In this document: positions 29,564 through 54,539 of the stretch, piece after piece
Numbering within the stretch: position 1 is the stretch's first letter
Layout of the letters: every line of letters begins with the position of its first letter
Origin: a virus
Strand: one strand, 5' to 3'
UHGV virus genome: UHGV-0211472
Length of the DNA stretch: 64,000 bases
Notes under the pieces: model-generated
Databases searched by the model: none
What the model was told of the DNA's origin: nothing
Seen by the model: only the letters and a program-made list of their open reading frames with translations
Program-made: the position numbers and the translations under genes

Positions 29564-30121
29564 TTACATTTTCCAATATAATGAAGGTGGGTCGTAAGGG
29601 TCAAATCCTGTGAGTTCACACAAGTATTTATAAACCTTAACAGTTAAATTAACGTCCTGTTCACAATAAGTAAACATATCCTCAGTGAAAGCATCCCATG
29701 CTTCCTCTTGCTCACCGTAATCACCTTTAAGTTCCCCTAAGAACTCACCCCATTGCTTCAAGCCATGACCTCTTGGGCCATGTCTAGGGTCGCCTTTCGG
29801 GTACTCAGGACTGTCACCAATACGGTCAGGTTTAAGATATCGACTAAGACATAAAGTGTCAAAGACGTTAAAACGATAGTTAATCAGATTGGGATACATC
29901 TTCTTCAGAGCACAAAGGTCGAAGTCAATAATATTGTGACCCACGAGCACATCTGCTTCTGTAAGTTTATGAATCCCATCTTCAATTTGGTGAGGCCGAT
30001 AGCCCCACCTTTCACCAGTTTCAACATCGAAAACATAAATACACCATACTTTGGTTATATCATCGTATAGTGCATTACTCTCAATATCGAATGCAAACAC
30101 TTTCTTCTTTTTCTTTACCAC
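29564..30121 (-). CDS. 3'-5' proofreading exonuclease (T7 gp5 N-terminal domain-like), stand-alone
   Basis: Exo I FDIES, Exo [11 protein letters not shown], Exo III YCEQDV; colinear with T7 DNA polymerase residues ~1-190. Confidence 0.75.
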
Positions 30122-30660
30122 GGTGAAGCTCCATCTGCTTGGCTGACGAGAGAAGCTGCATCCTCTCCGTTAGTTAAAACGAATGGATTATCTTCATCAA
30201 CTTCAAAGTCTTCCCTTTCTACAAGTCTACCGGTTTCACTGATATACTTAGTATAACAGACACCTGTCTGACCGTAGTTACGTTCTTTCAGTAATCGAAT
30301 GACTGAGAGGTTCTTAGCTAAGCCGTCAGCTTGCTTGTCACGCTCAAAGCCAATGATACACTGACACCAACGCATAAGAGAACGAGAGCCAGTGAACTGT
30401 ACTTCACGTACCTGTCCACCTTCTTCATGAGGAGCACCACCTGCCGGAGCATTAAGGTGAGATAGCACGAAAGCGGTAAAGTCTAACTCTTTACACATAC
30501 CAGCAAGCTCGGAAGCGATCTTACTGATTTCAGTGTTAATCTCTGAAGGTGTTAAATGAGATACCAGAGCGGTAATGTTATCAAGGATGATAAATTTACA
30601 CTGGTTTTCAACTACCCAGAAACGAATACACTGTTTAATGTCTTCCCATTCGTTTTGCAA
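30115..30660 (-). CDS. Primase-helicase, 3' exon (helicase motifs H2-H4)
   Basis: [10 protein letters not shown] and QFTGSRS helicase motifs; no Walker A; frame is open upstream to a TGA with no ATG/GTG; true exon start likely at 30675 or 30690. Confidence 0.7.
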
Positions 30661-30910
30661 TAATTCAATGAAGGACGCAACTCCTTCACCCGTAGCATTA
30701 TATCTACTGCCCGTGGTTTCCCACGGGATTGGACTATATCATCACTCCTATTAAGGAGGCTAGGCGCTTCCACTAGCATTAGCTTCTAGTGTACTCCTTT
30801 CGGATAGTCTCTGCACTTTCTAGGATGTATCCTAGCTTAGCTCAGGATTGGCATATCTTTCGACTTAGCTTTCCCTGAATTCACCTAGTTTTACTTCGGC
30901 CATTGTGTTA
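30661..30910 (-). ncRNA. Group I self-splicing intron (subgroup IA-like) in primase-helicase gene
   Basis: Minus-strand P/Q/R/S cores GAATTCAGGGAAAGC, CAATCCTGAGC, GCAGAGACTATCC, GATATAGTCCAA; P9 CCCGTGG-GAAA-CCACGGG; guide GGCCGAAG pairs with exon end ACTTCGGT; 3' boundary uncertain (30676 or 30691). Confidence 0.6.
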
Positions 30911-45935: not shown

Positions 45936-46108
45936 ACTTTACCTTTGATAAAAATATCATTACCACAGACACAGCATGAACGAACAACAGTAGCGCCACG
46001 CTGAACGATACGAACCTCTTCCTTAACCAGATTAATACGAGCACCGCAGCAAGGAGAATTGACATAAGAGTAACCAGCTTGTGTATTCTTGATTGTTTGC
46101 TTAGACAT
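45932..46108 (-). CDS. Small zinc-ribbon protein
   Basis: 58 aa, below track cutoff; CC-x16-CC spacing; stop overlaps downstream start (ATGA). Confidence 0.3.
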   Translation of the reverse strand: MSKQTIKNTQAGYSYVNSPCCGARINLVKEEVRIVQRGATVVRSCCVCGNDIFIKGKV

Positions 46109-46157
46109 TTTTAGCTTCCTCTTGTTAGTTTAAGTAAGAGTTGTCCCTTAATTAAAA

Positions 46158-46194
46158 CAACAAAGGCCACCCGATTGGGCAGCCTTTTTATTTG
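46158..46194. terminator. Terminator hairpin (conserved GGCCACCCGATTGGG element)
   Basis: AAAGGCCACCCGATTGGGCAGCC followed by TTTTTATTT on plus strand and T-rich on minus; copy of 23490..23512. Confidence 0.4.
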
Positions 46195-46634
46195 TTAGCT
46201 GTTATAAGTCCAACCACCTTGCTTGTTACGAATGGCAGACATTGCATGAAGCCAGAAGTCTTCCAGTTTCAGAGCACCGTTAGCTACTGCATCCATACGT
46301 TCAGGGCGGTTCATACGTTTGGTTGATACTTTCATACCTATCTCTCTTTGTTAGTGGAGGCATTATTGCCAGTTGATATAGCGGATAGCTCTCACTATAG
46401 AGCCAACTACTCTACAAACTGGTGAAGACTCCCTACCCCTAGGAAGTCTCCTGAATCCCAAACCAATACGTACCCCTACATATCGGAAAGTCTTTCGAAA
46501 ATTAACAGGTTTTAGTCTAGCACCGGATGTTCGAGCAAGCTCTCCCTAGCGGTGTGGCATATGCCTGAATTAATAAGTTAATGAGGAACACCCTCACATA
46601 GCCCTCTGATGAATACAAGGGCTATAAGTCGGTG

Positions 46635-48964: not shown

Positions 48965-49185
48965 GCTGCTTGATACCTTTTCATATATTCGATGCGGTGG
49001 GAATGTGTGTATGACGCTTTAATTGCCATTGCTCTGACTTCTTCTAAGCGTTGGTTTTCGTAAACCTTCTTTGCTTCTTCATGGTTATGTCGTTTCTGGA
49101 GAATCTTACTACATTTACGATGGTTTCCCGTGCTGCGATGTTTCTCACAAATAGGACACTTACCAAAGCCTTCACTAATGATCAT
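48961..49185 (-). CDS. Small zinc-finger protein
   Basis: CPICEKH ... HRKC pattern. Confidence 0.35.
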   Translation of the reverse strand: MIISEGFGKCPICEKHRSTGNHRKCSKILQKRHNHEEAKKVYENQRLEEVRAMAIKASYTHSHRIEYMKRYQAA

Positions 49186-49445
49186 TTTCTCAATCCTACC
49201 TTACGTAGTACACGGCCTAACGTTGTTTCTTGCGTGATGGTATAACTAATCGCTTCACGTTCTAACGTCTCAATCTTCATTGGCGACGGATACCATTCAC
49301 CGGTAAGCATACATTTATATTCAATGCCATACTTCTTAGATAGGCGGTAATGTTGACCGTTTCGAAGGTTTCTGTAGATCGTGGTATGTGTAGTTAACAT
49401 AGTCATCACCTTTGATTGGATTCTTTGATTAATGCACTGAATCAA
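49182..49445 (-). CDS. Hypothetical protein
   Basis: 87 aa ORF. Confidence 0.35.
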   Translation of the reverse strand: MIQCINQRIQSKVMTMLTTHTTIYRNLRNGQHYRLSKKYGIEYKCMLTGEWYPSPMKIETLEREAISYTITQETTLGRVLRKVGLRK

Positions 49446-49454
49446 TGCACTGAT

Positions 49455-49500
49455 AAAAGAAAAGGCGCTACCCGTTAAGATAGCGCCTTATGTTTATTTA
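49455..49500. terminator. Rho-independent terminator
   Basis: AGGCGCTA-cccgttaaga-TAGCGCCT stem flanked by AAAAGAAAA and TATGTTTATTT, downstream of 49512..50420 stop. Confidence 0.45.
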
Positions 49501-49511
49501 AATTGTCTTAC

Positions 49512-50420
49512 TTATGCTGCCTGACGTGCTGCCATAATTTCAGCCGCTTTGCGCAGTACTTCTTCCTCTTCTGCTTTCGCAGCTTGCTCGGTACGAGTAG
49601 CAACCGTTGAAGAGATACGACCGCGCAGACTTTCTAACTTCTCCTGCATAGCTGCAACAGCCTTTTCCATTTCATCAGCGTATGAATCAAGTGATTCCAA
49701 TTCCTTGCTTGATGCGTTCATCAGGTAGTCATCAGAGATTGCTACCGTTGAGGCCGTGACTTTCTTGATGAGTGAATCAAAGGACTTTTTAACTTTGCCG
49801 ACTTCTTCGCTCAGGGCAATAGTGTTATCACTAGTTGCGCCGTTGCGCTCATCAGCTAGTAATTTAGCTTCAATACGGATTGCATTCAAGCGTTCAACCA
49901 AAGCGTAAATATCTTGGTTAAAATCTTCCTTGTTTTTCGCCGGGATTTGCAGGTGTGCCGCTACGTTGTCGTTGCAACCTTTGTAGAAGTTAGGATTATC
50001 AACTTCAATTTCACGACCTAAAGCAAAGTTTTCGAAAGCGTTTGACCAGCGAGCGCGGTTTTGTTCCATTTTGGTCTTAATCTGCGCTTCTTTCGCATCT
50101 TCTTTCGCTTTCGCTTCACCTTCCAGATTAATCCACTTTTTACGACCATTTGCCGCATCGGTGTTAAACTTGATAGGGGTTAAGAAAGTGATTGCGGTAG
50201 CAATAACATCCATATCGCGGAAGCGTTCAGTTAACAGGAAATCAACCGCCGTCTGTAATACGTCCAGTTTCTTACCGTTGCTGCGGAAGTGCTGCAAATG
50301 ACCTAACAGGAAGTTAGAAACATCTTGTTTGATCGCCGCGTTATTGCTACGAATGTTGTTAGCCAGAGCATTAAAACCGGATTCGTTAACCAGAGTAAAG
50401 ATTTTAGCCATGATATTCAC
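49512..50420 (-). CDS. Hypothetical early protein
   Basis: 302 aa; first ORF downstream of the 1.6 kb ORF-free region; Ala/Lys/Glu-rich helical C-terminus. Confidence 0.45.
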   Translation of the reverse strand: MNIMAKIFTLVNESGFNALANNIRSNNAAIKQDVSNFLLGHLQHFRSNGKKLDVLQTAVDFLLTERFRDMDVIATAITFLTPIKFNTDAANGRKKWINLEGEAKAKEDAKEAQIKTKMEQNRARWSNAFENFALGREIEVDNPNFYKGCNDNVAAHLQIPAKNKEDFNQDIYALVERLNAIRIEAKLLADERNGATSDNTIALSEEVGKVKKSFDSLIKKVTASTVAISDDYLMNASSKELESLDSYADEMEKAVAAMQEKLESLRGRISSTVATRTEQAAKAEEEEVLRKAAEIMAARQAA

Positions 50421-51227
50421 CTTTCAATTGTAAGGGCACTTTGCCCCGCTCTCTATGAGCTTGCTTAAGTCACTATTAACTTAACTCTAACCACTCACTA
50501 TTAAGTAGTTATAGGTAAGTGGAGCGGTCTTATCAGGAATTAACCTTGCCGCTCCCTTATCCGTGATGTTTCATCTGGTATCTTTAATTAGTCGCTATAA
50601 ACAAAGCCGACCTGATAGCGATGATCAATCATCACAATAAGGCAGTGCGTCCGACTCTAATTAGTTACGTTATTGTAACCGTCGGCAATATCGTCTACTT
50701 TGCTTTCGCTCTCGCCTATCCTTTTGTATCAACTCTCAATCGCTAGTCATCGCCCACTACGGGATACTATTGCGAAAGAGTCATTGACCGTCTAATATTC
50801 CGACGTTTTATATCTTTCAGCGAGTTTACTACATAAACCGACTATGTACTTTCATCATGAGATGAATCTCAAGCCGTTCACATTGTAAACGTTCACACTA
50901 AACCTTATTGTTAAATAGCAATTTGCCACTTTTTAACCACTCCCCGCCGCTCTCAATTGAGCGTTAATTCGTCGGACTTATCTACCCTGATTAACTTCTT
51001 TCACCGTAGCGCCTTGTTAGCGATGACCGCCGCTACCCTTAACCGTGGGCGATTAGCTTAAGTCGATGCGTGCACTCGATGAATCTGCTTATCAGTGGTG
51101 ATGTTTCCAGTAAGGGATTGTAAGGCTGTTTTCTCTGATAGTTTAGAGAGTCTTACACCGTTTTATCTGGTATGCTTTCCGATGGTTATTATCATCAAGC
51201 ATATTCAACCGATATAGGAGAACGTTT

Positions 51228-51610
51228 AAATTGTTAAAGAGCGGTAAATCTATCAGCGCGCTTTCTCACGCTATGCAACTGTTAGCCGTTGTTACGCTAT
51301 TCACTGAAGCGGTGATTTGCTTAAGTGATGCTCATTATGAATCATGTTGTTTTAGCTGTCAACCACTTTTTTAATCTTTTTCGTCGTTCCCGTTATTGGG
51401 AGGATATACCAATCAGCTTTATTCGATTGGAGATTAAGCGGTAAGGCTTAACTTATGATTCATATTTTTAAAGAGCGGTTACTACATTCACAGCTTAACA
51501 CATCGTGTTAGCTTGTCAACTCTTTTTATCATCTTCTTTGAATTCCTTTCCCTTATCTCGCGTGAATCTCTGCGAAAGGGCAAGATGATAAGTTTTTAAA
51601 GAGCAATTGC
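51228..51610. repeat. Three dispersed copies of TTTAAAGAGC(G/A) with nearby TTGTCAA and TTACTACAT motifs
   Basis: TTTAAAGAGC at ~51231, ~51468, ~51594; TTACTACAT at ~50826, ~51478, ~51641; TTGTCAA at ~51357, ~51514, ~51661. Confidence 0.35.
51334..51362 (-). promoter_or_regulatory. Candidate sigma70-type promoter (minus strand)
   Basis: Minus strand TTGACA - 17 nt - CATAAT. Confidence 0.3.
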
Positions 51611-51919
51611 AAGTTTCCTTGCTTTGTTTCTGATACCCATCTTACTACATTTGGGCATCTTGTCAATCTTTTTATTTCTTATCGATTACCTGTTTTTCGT
51701 ACGACTTATCAGGTTGTCTACTTGGCACTGCTTAACCGATGAATAGATAATAGTGGAAGTGAGGGAGGAAAGCAACACTTATTTTGATTATTTTCAGGGA
51801 AGGAAGATATAAAAGAACGCGCACGCGAATAACATACTAAAACAGGCTTGTAAAGCACTAGTTGACGCTCTCAGACGCATCACAACGAGCTAAAAGGAAG
51901 TAAGGCATACAATCACCTT

Positions 51920-51950
51920 ATAAAAGAGAAAAGCCTCACTAGGAGGCTTA
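51920..51950 (-). terminator. Rho-independent terminator
   Basis: Minus strand AAGCCTC-ctagt-GAGGCTT followed by TTCTCTTTTAT, downstream of 52025..52390 stop. Confidence 0.4.
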
Positions 51951-52024
51951 CAGGAAGGATTAGAGAATCAGATAGATTATGACCATAGGCATGACTACGG
52001 CACAATACAGGAGAAAGATTAAGC

Positions 52025-52390
52025 CTATGGATTTACACATTGACCGTTGCCGGATTTTATTTCGTTCATAGACTCGTCAAAGAGCGTCAACGACGAGCGC
52101 AACAAGTGATCGACCGTAATTTGTTTGCCAGTGGTTTCGTTAGTCATATAGATAGACTTGTCATAGACTACAACACTCTCAAAATCTTCTACATGTAAAA
52201 TAATAACTTTAGGTGACTGTTTACCAGTTTCATAATCTTCTATCAAATAGGTGCACTGTAGACCTTCGATAGTATCAGGTGTGAACGTTGCAGCCTTCAC
52301 ACTACCCATAGACGATAGCAGGACACCTAACAGGAGAACAACAAGGAAGAAGCCTACAACCGTTTTAACGACGAATTTAATAAACCACAT
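52025..52390 (-). CDS. Signal-peptide / membrane-anchored protein
   Basis: N-terminal hydrophobic segment VVGFFLVVLLLGVLLSSMGSVKAA. Confidence 0.4.
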   Translation of the reverse strand: MWFIKFVVKTVVGFFLVVLLLGVLLSSMGSVKAATFTPDTIEGLQCTYLIEDYETGKQSPKVIILHVEDFESVVVYDKSIYMTNETTGKQITVDHLLRSSLTLFDESMNEIKSGNGQCVNP

Positions 52391-52484
52391 AGCAGTAAAC
52401 CTTTTTAGTCAGAGAATGTAAGAATACAGCATATCAGCGACGAACAACGCTACCGTAACGACGAACAAGCAACGCCAAAAATAA

Positions 52485-52748
52485 TCATGAAGCATCATTG
52501 CTACCCTCGACAAAAAATACTATACTGATTTGTTCCACTTCTTCCAGCGACAGGAGAATCCCACGTTGAGCTAAATACTTCCCAATAGCGAGATAATCTT
52601 GCACTAAATAGACCGCAGGAAAGCTAACGGTTTTTATCTTACCCTTCGTAAGAAAAGACAAATAAGCATAGTCGATTGACTCATCAAAGGAGAGCGTAAC
52701 GCCACCGTAATTATGCGTATCAATCAGCGCAATAGTTTCATTACCCAT
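52485..52748 (-). CDS. Hypothetical protein
   Basis: Track ORF 52485..53015 overlaps lipoprotein gene by 160 nt; shortened to internal ATG; start uncertain. Confidence 0.25.
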   Translation of the reverse strand: MGNETIALIDTHNYGGVTLSFDESIDYAYLSFLTKGKIKTVSFPAVYLVQDYLAIGKYLAQRGILLSLEEVEQISIVFFVEGSNDAS

Positions 52749-52854
52749 TGGTATCACACTCCCAAAACAACTAACAGATAGTAAGCGATTGCAGTAGCAA
52801 TCACCGTGAAAATTAAAGATAAAATGGTTGAGCTGGTATTGCAAACCATTCTTT

Positions 52855-53184
52855 TTAAATGTCCCATTCTTTACCTTTAGTGGAAGTGTTGCCACCGCAA
52901 TGAGTTGCTCGGGAGATAAAGTCTGACTTCTTCCAATCAGCTTGTGTTTCCATATCACGCTCACGATAGGCTTTCTCATCAACAGATCCACCATTAGAGC
53001 AGCTAGCACCTTCATACTTCATATCAATTTCACCAGAAGGAACCTTAACCCCATCTTTCCAACGCATTACACAAGTACCCTCAACTCCCAGAGCACACCA
53101 ACCGTTGGGACGCGGAGAAGAAGAACATCCAACAGTTGAGAGAACAGCTACAGATAAAAGAGCAGATGCAATCAGAGTTTTCAT
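52855..53184 (-). CDS. Lipoprotein
   Basis: MKTLIASALLSVAVLSTVGCSS: signal peptide with lipobox L-S-T-V-G-C; start moved to this ATG. Confidence 0.45.
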   Translation of the reverse strand: MKTLIASALLSVAVLSTVGCSSSPRPNGWCALGVEGTCVMRWKDGVKVPSGEIDMKYEGASCSNGGSVDEKAYRERDMETQADWKKSDFISRATHCGGNTSTKGKEWDI

Positions 53185-53253
53185 TGTCTTGATTCCTTTA
53201 GTGTTGTCTTGATGAGGTAATAATACTGCCAATCAATAACCGTGTCAACAACT

Positions 53254-53730
53254 TTATTTTGCTTTAACACAATCACCCATCTGGAAGCGGAACGTCCAGA
53301 TACTATTATCAGCAGCATAGACGGAAGTGGCTAACATGGTTTCTTGCATTGTGCCATACGTTACCAGATTAGTCACAACTTTAGAGCCTTTGATAGTCTG
53401 CACATCGCCAAAGGTAATCAACTCAGGGTCATTGTCTTTGCGAGAAAGGAGAATATCCTCATTGTTCTGATTGTCAAGTGTATGAGTAGACAGCACCATA
53501 CCACGATTGGTTACGTTAGATAACTTAACCTTCATCAACGTAGTGACATTATCTGAATCCAACCCTTTACAAACCATCCAACCTTTAGGAGCGTTGCTAA
53601 CGAATGTATCAGCAGCATCATTCACAACTACAGCAGCTTGAGCAACTGGAGCACTAGCAATCTTGTCAGCGATAGCCATGCTACCGAAGGTTAATATCAG
53701 AGCACCGATTACAAAGTTTGACTTAGTCAT
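53254..53730 (-). CDS. Secreted protein
   Basis: N-terminal signal peptide MTKSNFVIGALILTFGSMAIA; first gene downstream of a strong promoter. Confidence 0.45.
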   Translation of the reverse strand: MTKSNFVIGALILTFGSMAIADKIASAPVAQAAVVVNDAADTFVSNAPKGWMVCKGLDSDNVTTLMKVKLSNVTNRGMVLSTHTLDNQNNEDILLSRKDNDPELITFGDVQTIKGSKVVTNLVTYGTMQETMLATSVYAADNSIWTFRFQMGDCVKAK

Positions 53731-53771
53731 GATTGATTCCTTTAGTTGGTATGCTTCGTTTCAATGAGATA

Positions 53772-53800
53772 ACTATACTTCTTACTACACAACAAGTCAA
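53772..53800 (-). promoter_or_regulatory. Sigma70-type early promoter (minus strand)
   Basis: Minus strand TTGACT - 17 nt - TATAGT, ~40 nt upstream of AAGGAA RBS and ATG at 53730. Confidence 0.45.
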
Positions 53801-54090
53801 CAACTAATTTTAATTCTTTTATGATTCACGATGTAGCCTGAGCAACCGCAGTTCTCAGAGAGCCATTACTCACTTGGCTTCTCCAGTGACCCGATAGTGT
53901 TCCAGCCTTAGCCAGTCAATCGCGGAGTCCTTACATCTAATCACTTTCCACTACTTAGGACGATTATCCTTCATGGAACCTACTACTATCTAGCTACTTG
54001 GTATCGCTACTTCGCTTCGATGAATACAATTTACTACTTCTTACTAAGGAAAGCAAGCGCTACGGGTAAAATATTTCTACTATCTATATA

Positions 54091-54539
54091 GGACGGGGAG
54101 ATAACAACCGCAGGACAGACCACGGGGAAGGGTAGCCAGATAGTGCGGTAATAATATACCACTTAAATAATTGTATAACTCAAACATCAAAGACCGTTCG
54201 TACTACGTACTCACCATTCGCTACGCTCATGTACGCTGAAAAAGAAAGTAATAAAAGAATATAATAAACATCAAACATAATCTTTCCACTTAATTAATAC
54301 ATACATCATTATTGCACTCATAATAACAACTATTGAAACTATTATCAACGTAACTATGGGGGCTTGTGACTGTTACTCATGGGCATTATATCGCCTTAAT
54401 CTATTGGTACAGTGGAAGACCATTATCAGTGCTAGCCTTTCATCCATTCAGTAAAGGGGAACTAAATAAACGGGTAGGTAATGAATAGGATGGTATACAC
54501 GGGGAAAGAATAACGGGGAGTAGGCACGGGGAAGGTTGG
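54091..54539. repeat. Dispersed ACGGGGA(A/G) repeats in divergent regulatory region
   Basis: GGACGGGGAGATAAC (~54091), CACGGGGAAGGGTAG (~54121), ACACGGGGAAAGAATAACGGGGAGTAGGCACGGGGAAGG (~54497-54535). Confidence 0.4.

What the first reader, a model, noticed from the sequence alone, without database searches (positions are those of the whole stretch)
50421..52024. 1.6 kb ORF-free region with repeated motifs, hairpins and one sigma70-like promoter
No ORF of 60 aa or more occurs on either strand in 1.6 kb, in a genome otherwise ~90% coding. Recurring motifs: TTTAAAGAGC(G/A) three times, TTACTACAT three times, TTGTCAA three times, and hairpins such as GGAGCGG-20nt-CCGCTCC (50521..50555) and GCAAG-tttc-CTTGC (~51610). 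One TTGTCAA copy forms a good minus-strand promoter (TTGACA-17-CATAAT, 51334..51362) about 900 nt upstream of the next gene. A minus-strand terminator (51920..51950) bounds the region. Candidate roles: long structured leader or phage ncRNA, replication origin with iterons, or binding-site array for a phage regulator. The T7-promoter-like string CCACTCACTATTAAG at ~50501 is noted, but no single-subunit RNA polymerase is present in the window.
Basis: seen in the sequence. Interest (0 to 1): 0.55.

Follow-up and report, generated by a model that had tools for sequence, protein, structure and literature searches.

The report
Phage early promoters, boxA, structured leader
The gene-free 1.6 kb of this phiEco32-like coliphage is its early transcription control region: a terminator, three host-type promoters that are each followed by a ribosomal-RNA-style antitermination signal (boxA), and a conserved, tightly folded 0.9-kb non-coding leader RNA whose own job is still unknown.

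Summary
The window is a Kuravirus (phiEco32-like) genome. The finding is the spacer between the homologues of phiEco32 genes 125 and 124, and it is read on the minus strand.

It is the longest stretch in the window without an ORF of at least 60 aa.

- **Already published:** the SU10 paper describes three sigma70 early promoters and the upstream terminator in this spacer.
- **boxA sites (not in any paper I could search):** One copy follows each promoter. One copy is identical over 16 nt to the E. coli rrn leader. All 25 related genomes carry 3-5 perfect copies, in at least 19 unrelated sequence contexts.
- **Structured leader:** the about 900 nt between the last promoter and gene 124 is conserved as strongly as codon positions 1-2 of gene 124. 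It has no coding periodicity and no conserved ORF. It folds into two domains with 30 and 21 compensatory base pairs, against 2-7 in gene-124 controls. Rfam has no match.

An iteron origin, a binding-site array, small ORFs and a T7-type promoter are not supported. The function of the leader RNA remains inferred.

The parts
51921..51949 (-). Intrinsic terminator that ends the upstream early operon (gene 125 homologue and the genes before it)
   Evidence: 7-bp GC-rich stem, 5-nt loop and T-tract. It is homologous to the terminator annotated in SU10.
51687..51723 (-). 37-mer that is 35/37 identical to T7 nt 552-588, the sequence just upstream of the -35 of T7 promoter A2. It contains CTGATAAG.
51639..51666 (-). 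Early promoter P1: TTGACA-16-TAAGAT, with an A-rich upstream tract. It resembles T7 A2. Inferred start near 51632.
   Evidence: 10 of 12 matches; T7 comparison
51609..51622 (-). Hairpin GCAAG-GAAA-CTTGC, 4 nt 5' of boxA-1. Hairpin followed by boxA is the order found in rrn leaders.
   Evidence: Relatives carry hairpins of different sequence in the same place, for example GGCAAGAAATTGCC and GGCACTTAGTGCC.
51594..51604 (-). boxA-1, GCTCTTTAAAA, about +29 from the inferred P1 start
   Evidence: Perfect match to GYTCTTTAANA; consensus from PMC5725501
51526..51591 (-). Conserved long imperfect hairpin between cassette 1 and P2 (UUAUCAUCUUGCCCUUUCGC...GCGAGAUAAGGG...AAGAUGAUAA)
   Evidence: Present in 24 of the 25 genomes compared (window plus 24 relatives). 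Two pairs show compensatory change: A-U to G-C six times and C-G to U-A once. Inverted repeat I17.
51492..51519 (-). Early promoter P2: TTGACA-16-TAAGCT with an extended -10 TG. Inferred start near 51485.
   Evidence: Same sequence as the SU10 promoter listed at 73668. It falls below the threshold of the consensus scan.
51466..51476 (-). boxA-2, GCTCTTTAAAA, about +10 from the inferred P2 start
51334..51362 (-). It is present in all relatives. Inferred start near 51327.
51254..51273 (-). Hairpin 10 nt 5' of boxA-3, with three covarying pairs and up to four pair types at one position
   Evidence: A1 helix 4
51227..51242 (-). boxA-3 plus linker, GCTCTTTAACAATTTA. It is identical over 16 nt to the leader of the E. 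coli rrn operons.
   Evidence: The rrn leader sequence was found at 100% identity, with a median of 7 places per genome, in all 5,426 E. coli genomes.
50932..51230 (-). Structured RNA domain 1: about 300 nt closed by a long-range helix (51230..51217 with 50945..50932) that encloses at least 10 helices
   Evidence: 110 pairs in alignment A1, 30 of them with compensatory change, against 14.1 in shuffles (0 of 500 shuffles reach the observed value) and 1-6 with partners slid. z = -3.1.
50908..50931 (-). Nearly invariant hairpin that carries a boxA-like sequence, GCTATTTAACA (50919..50909). This differs from the consensus at position 4.
   Evidence: (A1 helix 18)
50741..50902 (-). Variable, indel-rich patch between the two domains. 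It contains a decayed copy of a T7-A2-like promoter cassette, including the third ATGTAGTAA at 50834..50826.
50425..50740 (-). Structured RNA domain 2.
   Evidence: 86 pairs in alignment A2, 21 of them compensatory, against 9.6 in shuffles (0 of 500). z = -4.6.
51160..51173 (-). Conserved 14-mer AUACCAGAUAAAAC, the copy in domain 1
   Evidence: (D14)
50568..50581 (-). Conserved 14-mer AUACCAGAUGAAAC, the copy in domain 2
   Evidence: (D14)
50409..50424 (-). Shine-Dalgarno sequence AAAGGUG and the ATG of gene 124 (299 aa, PHROG 13018, function unknown)

Best explanation
The spacer is the main early transcription control region of a phiEco32-like podophage. It is read leftwards, on the minus strand.

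An intrinsic terminator closes the small operon at the genome end. Three tandem sigma70 promoters with A-rich upstream tracts follow, and host RNA polymerase fires them right after infection.

Each promoter is followed within 10-90 nt by an rrn-type boxA, usually next to a small hairpin. I infer that the nascent boxA RNA loads NusB-NusE(S10). With NusA, NusG and SuhB this turns the polymerase into a fast, Rho-resistant, rrn-like antitermination complex. Such a complex could carry the polymerase through about 0.9 kb of untranslated RNA and on into the long early and middle gene cluster.

The untranslated stretch is itself a selected product. It is a two-domain structured RNA, either a leader or an excised ncRNA, that sits in front of gene 124.

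Shown here: the promoters by consensus and homology, the boxA matches and their conservation, the absence of coding signal, and the RNA structure with covariation on the transcribed strand.

Inferred: Nus-factor binding, Rho resistance, the transcription start sites, and what the folded RNA does.
For: Identity of the region: about 92% identical to phiEco32, between genes 124 and 125. [quoted passage not shown] The window carries matching sequences.

boxA:
- The consensus GYTCTTTAANA comes from Baniulyte et al..
- There are 4 hits in 64 kb against 0.58 expected. Three of them lie in 372 nt here, all on the transcribed strand, one after each promoter.
- There are 102 perfect copies in the spacers of 25 genomes, 3-5 per genome, in at least 19 unrelated upstream contexts. 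66 of them have a strong sigma70 promoter within 130 nt upstream.
- boxA-3 plus linker is identical over 16 nt to the host rrn leader.
- T7 has the same element after its A1-A3 promoters.

Leader:
- It has 1.65-2.0 changes per column, against 5.7 at third codon positions of gene 124.
- It has no 3-base periodicity (117/116/111, against 537/349/1710 in gene 124) and no conserved ORF.
- In Suseptimavirus genomes it is more conserved than gene 124: 88-91.5% against 76-80%.
- It has 30 and 21 compensatory pairs, and 0 of 500 shuffles reach either value. Equal-sized gene-124 controls give 2-7.
- The sense strand folds better than the antisense strand: -101 against -91 and -84 against -51 kcal/mol.
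- z-scores are -3.1 and -4.6.
Against: - No transcript ends were mapped here. The primary phiEco32 papers (PMC3275717, PMC2587145) could not be read, so start sites are inferred and some of this may already be in print.
- The rrn boxC (UGUGUGGG) is absent. Full rrn-type architecture is therefore not met.
- P2 has a weak -10 (TAAGCT) and fails the consensus scan.
- boxA-2 lies only about 10 nt from the inferred start.
- The structures came from RNAalifold on the same alignments. This inflates pairing percentages, although not the gene-124 control comparison.
- The genomes are closely related (76-95% identical), so compensatory 'cells' are not independent events.
- The transcript is G-rich rather than C-rich, so it may be a poor Rho substrate even without antitermination.
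- The distant relative 7-11 has a 1-kb leader but no boxA.
Confidence: 0.65

Rival explanations
1. The folded RNA is mainly a cis-acting 5' UTR that sets the translation or stability of gene 124 mRNA. It could do this by sequestering the Shine-Dalgarno sequence and start codon in long-range helices, or by providing RNase III or RNase E processing sites as in T7 early mRNA. On this reading it has no trans function.
For: The RNAalifold consensus pairs GCCUU (50643..50639) with the Shine-Dalgarno AAGGU (50423..50419). It also pairs two further upstream segments with the SD-AUG spacer and with the AUG. The leader always directly precedes gene 124. T7 has an RNase III site in the equivalent position (established knowledge; sequence).
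Against: The SD-sequestering helices show almost no compensatory change and several broken cells (A2 helices 1, 3 and 6). 900 nt with two multi-helix domains and invariant unpaired stretches is far more than SD masking needs. Domain 1 lies 500-800 nt from the start codon.
Confidence: 0.2
2. The region is, or contains, the phage replication origin. Either it uses iterons and host initiator boxes, or it is a transcription-primed origin in which the structured early transcript forms an R-loop primer, as for ColE1 RNA II or the T7 primary origin.
For: It is the largest non-coding stretch in the window. It is heavily transcribed from strong promoters, is conserved, and contains repeats. A structured primer RNA would also show covariation, so searches do not exclude the R-loop version.
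Against: No DnaA box within 1 mismatch lies anywhere in 49015..53368. The direct repeats are promoter/boxA cassettes whose number (3-5) and flanks vary, not regularly spaced iterons. There is no skew inflection specific to the spacer. G-U-tolerant variation favours selection on RNA of one strand.
Confidence: 0.1
3. The repeats are DNA binding sites for a phage or host regulator, that is, an operator array controlling the early promoters.
For: The recurring short motifs overlap or flank the promoters. CTGATAAG is over-represented in the window, 12 against 3.1 expected, with 3 copies here.
Against: The commonest repeat equals the RNA element boxA and always lies on the transcribed strand downstream of promoters. 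The known phiEco32 switch factor gp79 acts on RNA polymerase, not on DNA (PMC12276001). None of these motifs has dyad symmetry.
Confidence: 0.05
4. The region encodes several very small proteins, as annotated in CHD5UKE1 and 101114UKE3.
For: Some GenBank records fill the spacer with 10 or more ORFs of 30-50 codons.
Against: There is no 3-base periodicity of substitutions. No ORF of 30 aa or more is shared by all genomes, and almost none lies on the transcribed strand. Most annotators leave the spacer empty.
Confidence: 0.03

Closest known systems
E. coli rrn operon leader nut-like site (boxB-boxA-boxC) and the rrn antitermination complex (NusA, NusB, NusE, NusG, SuhB, S4)
   Same: - Perfect boxA, with 16 nt (GCTCTTTAACAATTTA) identical to the host rrn leader.
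- A hairpin directly 5' of boxA, which is the rrn order.
- Strong promoters with A-rich upstream tracts.
- A long, untranslated, highly structured transcript follows, whose first domain is closed by a long-range helix.
   Different: - No boxC.
- One boxA per promoter, 3-5 in tandem, rather than one per leader.
- The downstream RNA is not rRNA and matches no Rfam family.
- Protein-coding genes follow.
- Nus dependence is untested.
Early region of phage T7 (promoters A1, A2, A3; boxA; RNase III site R0.3; gene 0.3)
   Same: - Three tandem host-RNAP early promoters near a genome end, followed by boxA and a structured leader before the first gene.
- Real sequence homology: 35/37 nt with T7 552-588; an A2-like promoter with -10 TAAGAT; the upstream AAAAAGAGTATTGAC of A1 shared by relatives; and T7 GCTCTTTAACA at about nt 812-822.
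   Different: - T7 has a single boxA after all three promoters and a leader of about 180-430 nt, depending on the promoter. Here there is one boxA per promoter and about 900 nt of leader.
- This phage has no single-subunit RNA polymerase. It switches with a phage sigma factor (gp36) and gp79.
Lambda nutL and nutR (boxA-boxB) with N protein
   Same: boxA lies on the nascent RNA just downstream of early promoters. Cassettes 1 and 2 have a hairpin 3' of boxA, as in lambda.
   Different: - The boxA is rrn-type (GCTCTTTAA), not lambda's CGCTCTTA.
- No N-like arginine-rich protein is evident among the upstream early ORFs, which look like secreted or membrane proteins.
- The hairpins do not resemble boxB.
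RNA-only processive antiterminators: HK022 put, B. subtilis EAR, E. coli RARE
   Same: These are structured RNA elements in leaders that make polymerase resistant to termination (reviewed in PMC8632103).
   Different: Those elements are about 70-130 nt and act without boxA. Here boxA is present and the RNA is about 900 nt. No sequence or Rfam similarity was found.

Membership tests
boxA (Nus-factor loading site; rrn-type nut-like element) | Match to the gamma-proteobacterial boxA consensus GYTCTTTAANA on the transcribed strand | tested here: met
   Three perfect matches at 51604..51594, 51476..51466 and 51242..51232, all on the minus strand. The window has 4 in total against 0.58 expected. The consensus is from PMC5725501.
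boxA (Nus-factor loading site; rrn-type nut-like element) | Located in the transcript, shortly downstream of a promoter | tested here: met
   Each copy is about 10-90 nt downstream of a sigma70 promoter by consensus and by homology to the published SU10 promoters. Start sites are inferred, not mapped.
boxA (Nus-factor loading site; rrn-type nut-like element) | Conserved in relatives independently of flanking sequence | tested here: met
   102 perfect copies in 25 genomes, in at least 19 unrelated upstream contexts.
boxA (Nus-factor loading site; rrn-type nut-like element) | Binds NusB-NusE, and antitermination depends on Nus factors | not testable with these tools
   Needs binding assays, ChIP or nus mutants.
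Complete rrn leader architecture (boxB-boxA-boxC) | boxC (UGUGUGGG) 3' of boxA | tested here: not met
   No TGTGTGGG within 1 mismatch anywhere in the spacer.
Complete rrn leader architecture (boxB-boxA-boxC) | Hairpin immediately 5' of boxA | tested here: met
   Hairpin 51622..51609 lies before boxA-1. The covarying hairpin 51273..51254 lies before boxA-3. No obvious hairpin fits in the short distance between the P2 start and boxA-2.
Sigma70 early promoters | -35 and -10 hexamers with 16-18 nt spacing | tested here: met
   P3 scores 11 of 12 and P1 10 of 12. P2 is TTGACA-16-TAAGCT with an extended -10 TG; it falls below the scan threshold but is identical to an SU10-listed promoter.
Sigma70 early promoters | Mapped start sites and early kinetics | not testable with these tools
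   The primary phiEco32 transcription paper is not held. The SU10 paper says 'like phage phiEco32'.
Intrinsic terminator | GC-rich stem-loop followed by a U-tract | tested here: met
   Stem 51949..51931 followed by TTCTCTTTTA. It is annotated as a terminator in SU10 and SU7.
Any described RNA family (Rfam 15) | Covariance-model match at the gathering score or at E up to 10 | tested here: not met
   Nothing reaches the gathering score in the spacer. Only chance-level hits, each far below its family's threshold, appear at E up to 10. No tRNA or tmRNA was found.
Iteron or DnaA-type replication origin | Cluster of DnaA boxes or regularly spaced iterons | tested here: not met
   No TTATNCACA within 1 mismatch in 49015..53368. 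The repeats are promoter/boxA cassettes with irregular spacing of 128, 234 and 419 nt.
gp36 (phage sigma) promoter tAATGTAtA | 9-mer consensus within 1 mismatch | tested here: not met
   None in the spacer of this window. Ten relatives do carry TAATGTATA plus a hairpin plus boxA in their spacers.
T7-type single-subunit RNAP promoter | 23-bp consensus | tested here: not met
   No match within 3 mismatches in the window. The look-alike string is one arm of covarying hairpin A2 helix 12.

The most novel reading that the evidence does not exclude
The 0.9-kb leader is a previously undescribed class of large structured phage RNA, confined so far to Gordonclarkvirinae. It would be made in bulk in the first minutes of infection by rrn-style antiterminated polymerases. 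Domain 1, with its long-range closing helix, would be released and act in trans. Candidate roles are a decoy or sponge for host factors (Nus factors, ribosomal proteins, RNases) or for RNA-sensing defence systems, in a phage group noted for unusual resistance to host defences. The tandem boxA copies might also drain NusB/NusE from host rrn operons.
Probability: 0.25. Interest if true: 0.8.

Novelty: new variant of a known kind. Interest (0 to 1): 0.6.

Why it matters
Kuraviruses are common, broad-host-range coliphages used in therapy work, and their molecular biology is little studied (PMC11990801). The transcription papers I could read describe how sigma70, gp36 and gp79 switch initiation, but none explains how early transcripts stay processive. 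For the relative 7-11 the authors state that an antitermination strategy 'remains to be defined'.

A boxA after every early promoter gives a simple, testable answer: the phage borrows the host's ribosomal-RNA antitermination machinery without an N protein. It also points to exchange of early-promoter cassettes between T7-like and phiEco32-like phages.

Separately, a 900-nt non-coding RNA under selection as strong as on protein-coding positions, with about 50 covarying pairs and no Rfam family, is a concrete candidate for a new large phage ncRNA.

On the practical side, annotators should stop filling this spacer with tiny ORFs.

Tried and rejected
- **Rfam and ARAGORN:** Rfam at the gathering score on the whole window and at E up to 10 on the spacer found no family. 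ARAGORN found no tRNA or tmRNA.
- **E. coli genomes:** BLAST of the spacer against 5,426 genomes gave no match.
- **Wider relatives:** distant BLAST against 50,697 phage records finds the leader only in 98 Gordonclarkvirinae-type records. Pattern scans of IMG/VR, metagenome and bacterial-genome collections with invariant leader strings returned only kuravirus-like contigs plus four chance hits in unrelated AT-rich contigs.
- **gene 124 neighbours:** The search for related loci with gp124 gave only 5 loci.
- **Sequence motifs:** DnaA boxes, boxC, the gp36 promoter and the T7 promoter are all absent from the spacer.
- **Phage 7-11:** its right end has about 1 kb of non-coding DNA before its first early gene, but no boxA. 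Its gp151 is not detectably related to gp124.
- **gp124 itself:** only PHROG 13018, of unknown function. There is no Pfam hit above the cut-off and no solved relative.
- **N-like antiterminator:** none is evident among the upstream early ORFs.
- **Literature:** the two primary phiEco32 papers are not held. One literature search was wasted on over-broad terms. No paper in the library combines boxA with phiEco32 or documents the T7 boxA.
- **Not done:** I built no covariance model, because it could only have searched sequence already fetched.
Full report
**Identity and context.**
The region 50300..52100 matches 98 phage records at 76-95% identity, all phiEco32-like podophages (Kuravirus, Suseptimavirus, Nieuwekanaalvirus; subfamily Gordonclarkvirinae). 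In phiEco32 it is the spacer between genes 124 and 125.

In the window, gene 124 is 50411..49512 on the minus strand. It encodes 299 aa in PHROG 13018, of unknown function. Gene 125 is 52390..52025 on the minus strand. Everything from about 15 kb to 54 kb is transcribed leftwards, so I read the spacer on the minus strand.

**Check of the observation.**
There is no ORF of 60 aa or more in 50421..52024. This is the longest such gap in the window, 1604 nt against 709 nt for the next. The promoter at 51362..51334, the terminator at 51949..51921 and both hairpins are present.

The motif counts need small corrections. TTAAAGAGCR occurs three times, and only here in 64 kb. TTACTACAT occurs three times here. 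TTGTCAA occurs only twice here, with a third copy reading CTGTCAA, and that 7-mer is not enriched overall.

**What was already known.**
[quoted passage not shown] Its Table S2 lists them.

Two of the listed sequences are the window's P2 (TTGACAagctaacacgatgtgtTAAGCT) and P3 (TTGACAgc.aaaacaacatgattCATAAT). The listed terminator is the window's 51949..51921. All three TGTCAA copies are therefore -35 hexamers of tandem early promoters.

The window's P1 (TTGACA-16-TAAGAT, 51666..51639) replaces the third SU10 promoter with a different cassette.

**boxA.**
This is boxA, the RNA site that binds NusB-NusE in rrn operons and in lambda nut sites (reviewed in PMC8632103).

- **Enrichment:** with the published gamma-proteobacterial consensus GYTCTTTAANA (PMC5725501), the window has 4 matches against 0.58 expected. 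Three lie within 372 nt of the spacer, all on the minus strand.
- **Position:** the copies sit about +29, +10 and +86 from the inferred starts of P1, P2 and P3.
- **Identity to the host:** boxA-3 with its 3' flank, GCTCTTTAACAATTTA, is identical over 16 nt to the E. coli rrn leader. I confirmed that leader sequence at 100% identity, with a median of 7 places per genome, in all 5,426 E. coli genomes.
- **Adjacent hairpins:** hairpins lie directly 5' of boxA-1 (51622..51609) and boxA-3 (51273..51254). The latter has three covarying pairs. Hairpin then boxA is the rrn order. Relatives carry hairpins of other sequences in the same place.
- **Conservation:** every one of the 25 fetched relatives carries 3-5 perfect boxA copies on the transcribed strand of its spacer. 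That makes 102 copies in at least 19 unrelated upstream contexts, and 66 of them have a strong sigma70 promoter within 130 nt. Ten genomes also have a gp36-type TAATGTATA element followed by a hairpin and boxA.
- **T7:** T7 carries GCTCTTTAACA after its A1-A3 promoters.
- **What is missing:** boxC is absent. No N-like protein is evident upstream.
- **Literature:** no paper in the searchable library mentions boxA together with phiEco32. The 2022 paper from the laboratory that studies these phages leaves antitermination in the relative 7-11 'to be defined'.

**Kinship with T7.**
Window 51723..51687 is 35/37 identical to T7 552-588, just upstream of the -35 of T7 A2. P1 shares with A2 the -35 TTGACAA and the -10 context GTAAGAT. 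Relatives share AAAAAGAGTATTGAC with T7 A1. The variable patch of the leader contains a decayed A2-like cassette, which accounts for the third ATGTAGTAA.

**The leader is non-coding but under selection.**
I aligned 25 genomes from P3 to the end of gene 124.

- The leader blocks 51296..50903 and 50740..50412 are as conserved as the gene (majority fraction about 0.9). A 160-nt indel-rich patch (50902..50741) separates them.
- Substitutions per column are 1.65-2.0 in the leader. In gene 124 they are 5.7 at third codon positions and about 1.5 at positions 1-2.
- Gene 124 shows strong 3-base periodicity (537/349/1710). The leader shows none (117/116/111; 98/121/89). No ORF is conserved, and hardly any ORF of 30 aa or more lies on the transcribed strand.
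- Against Suseptimavirus genomes the leader is 88-91.5% identical, while gene 124 is only 76-80%.

**The leader is a structured RNA.**
- **Block 1 (51327..50900):** RNAalifold gives 110 pairs, 30 of them with compensatory change. Shuffles give 14.1 ± 1.9 and 0 of 500 reach 30. Sliding the partners gives 1-6.
- **Block 2 (50745..50400):** 86 pairs, 21 compensatory, against 9.6 ± 1.7 in shuffles (0 of 500).
- **Control:** equal-length pieces of gene 124 from the same genomes give 2-7 compensatory pairs and consensus energies of -22 to -45 kcal/mol. The leader gives -101 and -84.
- **Strand:** the antisense strand folds worse (-91 and -51), as expected if G-U pairs matter.
- **Single sequence:** z-scores are -3.1 and -4.6.
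- **Domain 1:** it is closed by a long-range helix (51230..51217 with 50945..50932, three covarying pairs) that starts right after boxA-3.
The 'T7-promoter-like' string is one arm of a hairpin with six covarying pairs (50514..50485).
- **Twin motif:** two near-invariant copies of AUACCAGAURAAAC occur, one per domain.
- **Between cassettes:** a conserved long hairpin also sits between cassette 1 and P2.
- **Rfam:** it has no matching family.

**Mechanism.**
Shown here:
- the terminator and the promoter/boxA cassettes;
- the conservation of the boxA copies;
- a selected, folded, non-coding transcript region on the early strand.

Inferred from established knowledge of boxA:
- the nascent boxA recruits NusB-NusE;
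- together with NusA, NusG and SuhB this makes host polymerase Rho-resistant and fast;
- that would let it cross 0.9 kb of untranslated RNA and continue into the roughly 35-kb leftward gene cluster.

What the folded RNA does is unknown. Options are cis control or processing of gene 124 mRNA, a released trans-acting RNA, or a primer for replication. The helices that would mask the Shine-Dalgarno sequence lack covariation.

**Alternatives.**
- **Iteron or DnaA-type origin:** no DnaA boxes, and the repeats are cassettes with irregular spacing. A transcription-primed origin cannot be excluded.
- **Operator array:** the main repeat is an RNA element restricted to one strand.
- **Small ORFs:** no coding signal.
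- **T7-type promoter:** no match.

**Limits.**
- No expression data were available.
- The primary phiEco32 papers were not readable.
- The genomes compared are closely related.
- The structures were derived from the same alignments that were scored.
- The element was found only in Gordonclarkvirinae.

**Verdict.**
The promoters and the terminator are already published. The boxA cassettes and the covariation-supported 0.9-kb structured leader appear to be undescribed and are experimentally tractable.

Noticed in passing
window 30710..30920 (minus): A group I intron (Rfam RF00028, 86 bits, E = 1.4e-20) lies between ORFs 32158..30908 (416 aa) and 30660..30115 (181 aa, weak DnaB_C match). It therefore probably splits the phage primase/helicase gene. 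A DNA polymerase A 3'-5' exonuclease ORF follows.
   Followed up: partly
window 51687..51723 and 51639..51666; L026 (T7 380-1000); L001: The early-promoter cassettes of kuraviruses share real sequence with the T7 early region. There are 35/37 nt upstream of A2, an A2-like -10 context, the A1 upstream tract AAAAAGAGTATTGAC in relatives, and boxA with flanks (ACGCTCTTTAAaAATCaGG). This suggests exchange of promoter modules between Autographiviridae and Gordonclarkvirinae.
   Followed up: partly
whole window; spacer copies at 50529..50536, 51088..51095 and 51705..51712 (minus): CTGATAAG occurs 12 times in 64 kb against 3.07 expected, and none of 100 shuffles reaches 12. All three spacer copies are on the transcribed strand, and one lies inside the T7-homologous 37-mer. 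What reads this motif is unknown.
   Followed up: no
window 50568..50581 and 51160..51173 (minus): Two near-invariant copies of AUACCAGAURAAAC occur, one in each RNA domain, 592 nt apart. Most relatives keep both copies. This could be a paired protein-binding site.
   Followed up: partly
L002, L006, L007, L014, L024 and others (spacers of relatives): Ten related genomes carry a perfect gp36 (phage sigma) promoter element TAATGTATA followed by a hairpin and boxA inside the same spacer. boxA is therefore not tied to sigma70 promoters, and the region may also be transcribed in the middle or late phase in those phages.
   Followed up: partly
L002 (MZ234028) and L017 (MZ234017) spacers: These GenBank records annotate 10 or more 'hypothetical proteins' of 30-50 codons across the spacer. 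They lack any coding signal and are almost certainly spurious. The 'terminase' label on the 121-aa gene 125 homologue (PHROG 13168) also looks doubtful, because the protein starts with a hydrophobic signal-like or transmembrane segment.
   Followed up: partly
window 52025..53730 (minus): The small early operon upstream of the spacer encodes proteins with N-terminal signal or lipoprotein-like sequences: MWFIKFVVKTVVGFFLVVLLLG..., ...LSVAVLSTVGCSSS..., MTKSNFVIGALILTFGSMAIA.... It differs from phiEco32 genes 126-128. These may be envelope or superinfection-exclusion functions.
   Followed up: no
L027 8865..9917 (Salmonella phage 7-11, right end): The distant relative 7-11 also has about 1 kb without annotated genes upstream of its first early gene, but it has no boxA. 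A long early leader may be a wider trait of C3-morphotype podophages.
   Followed up: partly
window 53731..54439 and 45936..46634: These are the two next-largest stretches without an ORF of 60 aa or more, at 709 and 699 nt. The first lies at the divergence point of the two transcription directions, near the genome ends of phiEco32.
   Followed up: no
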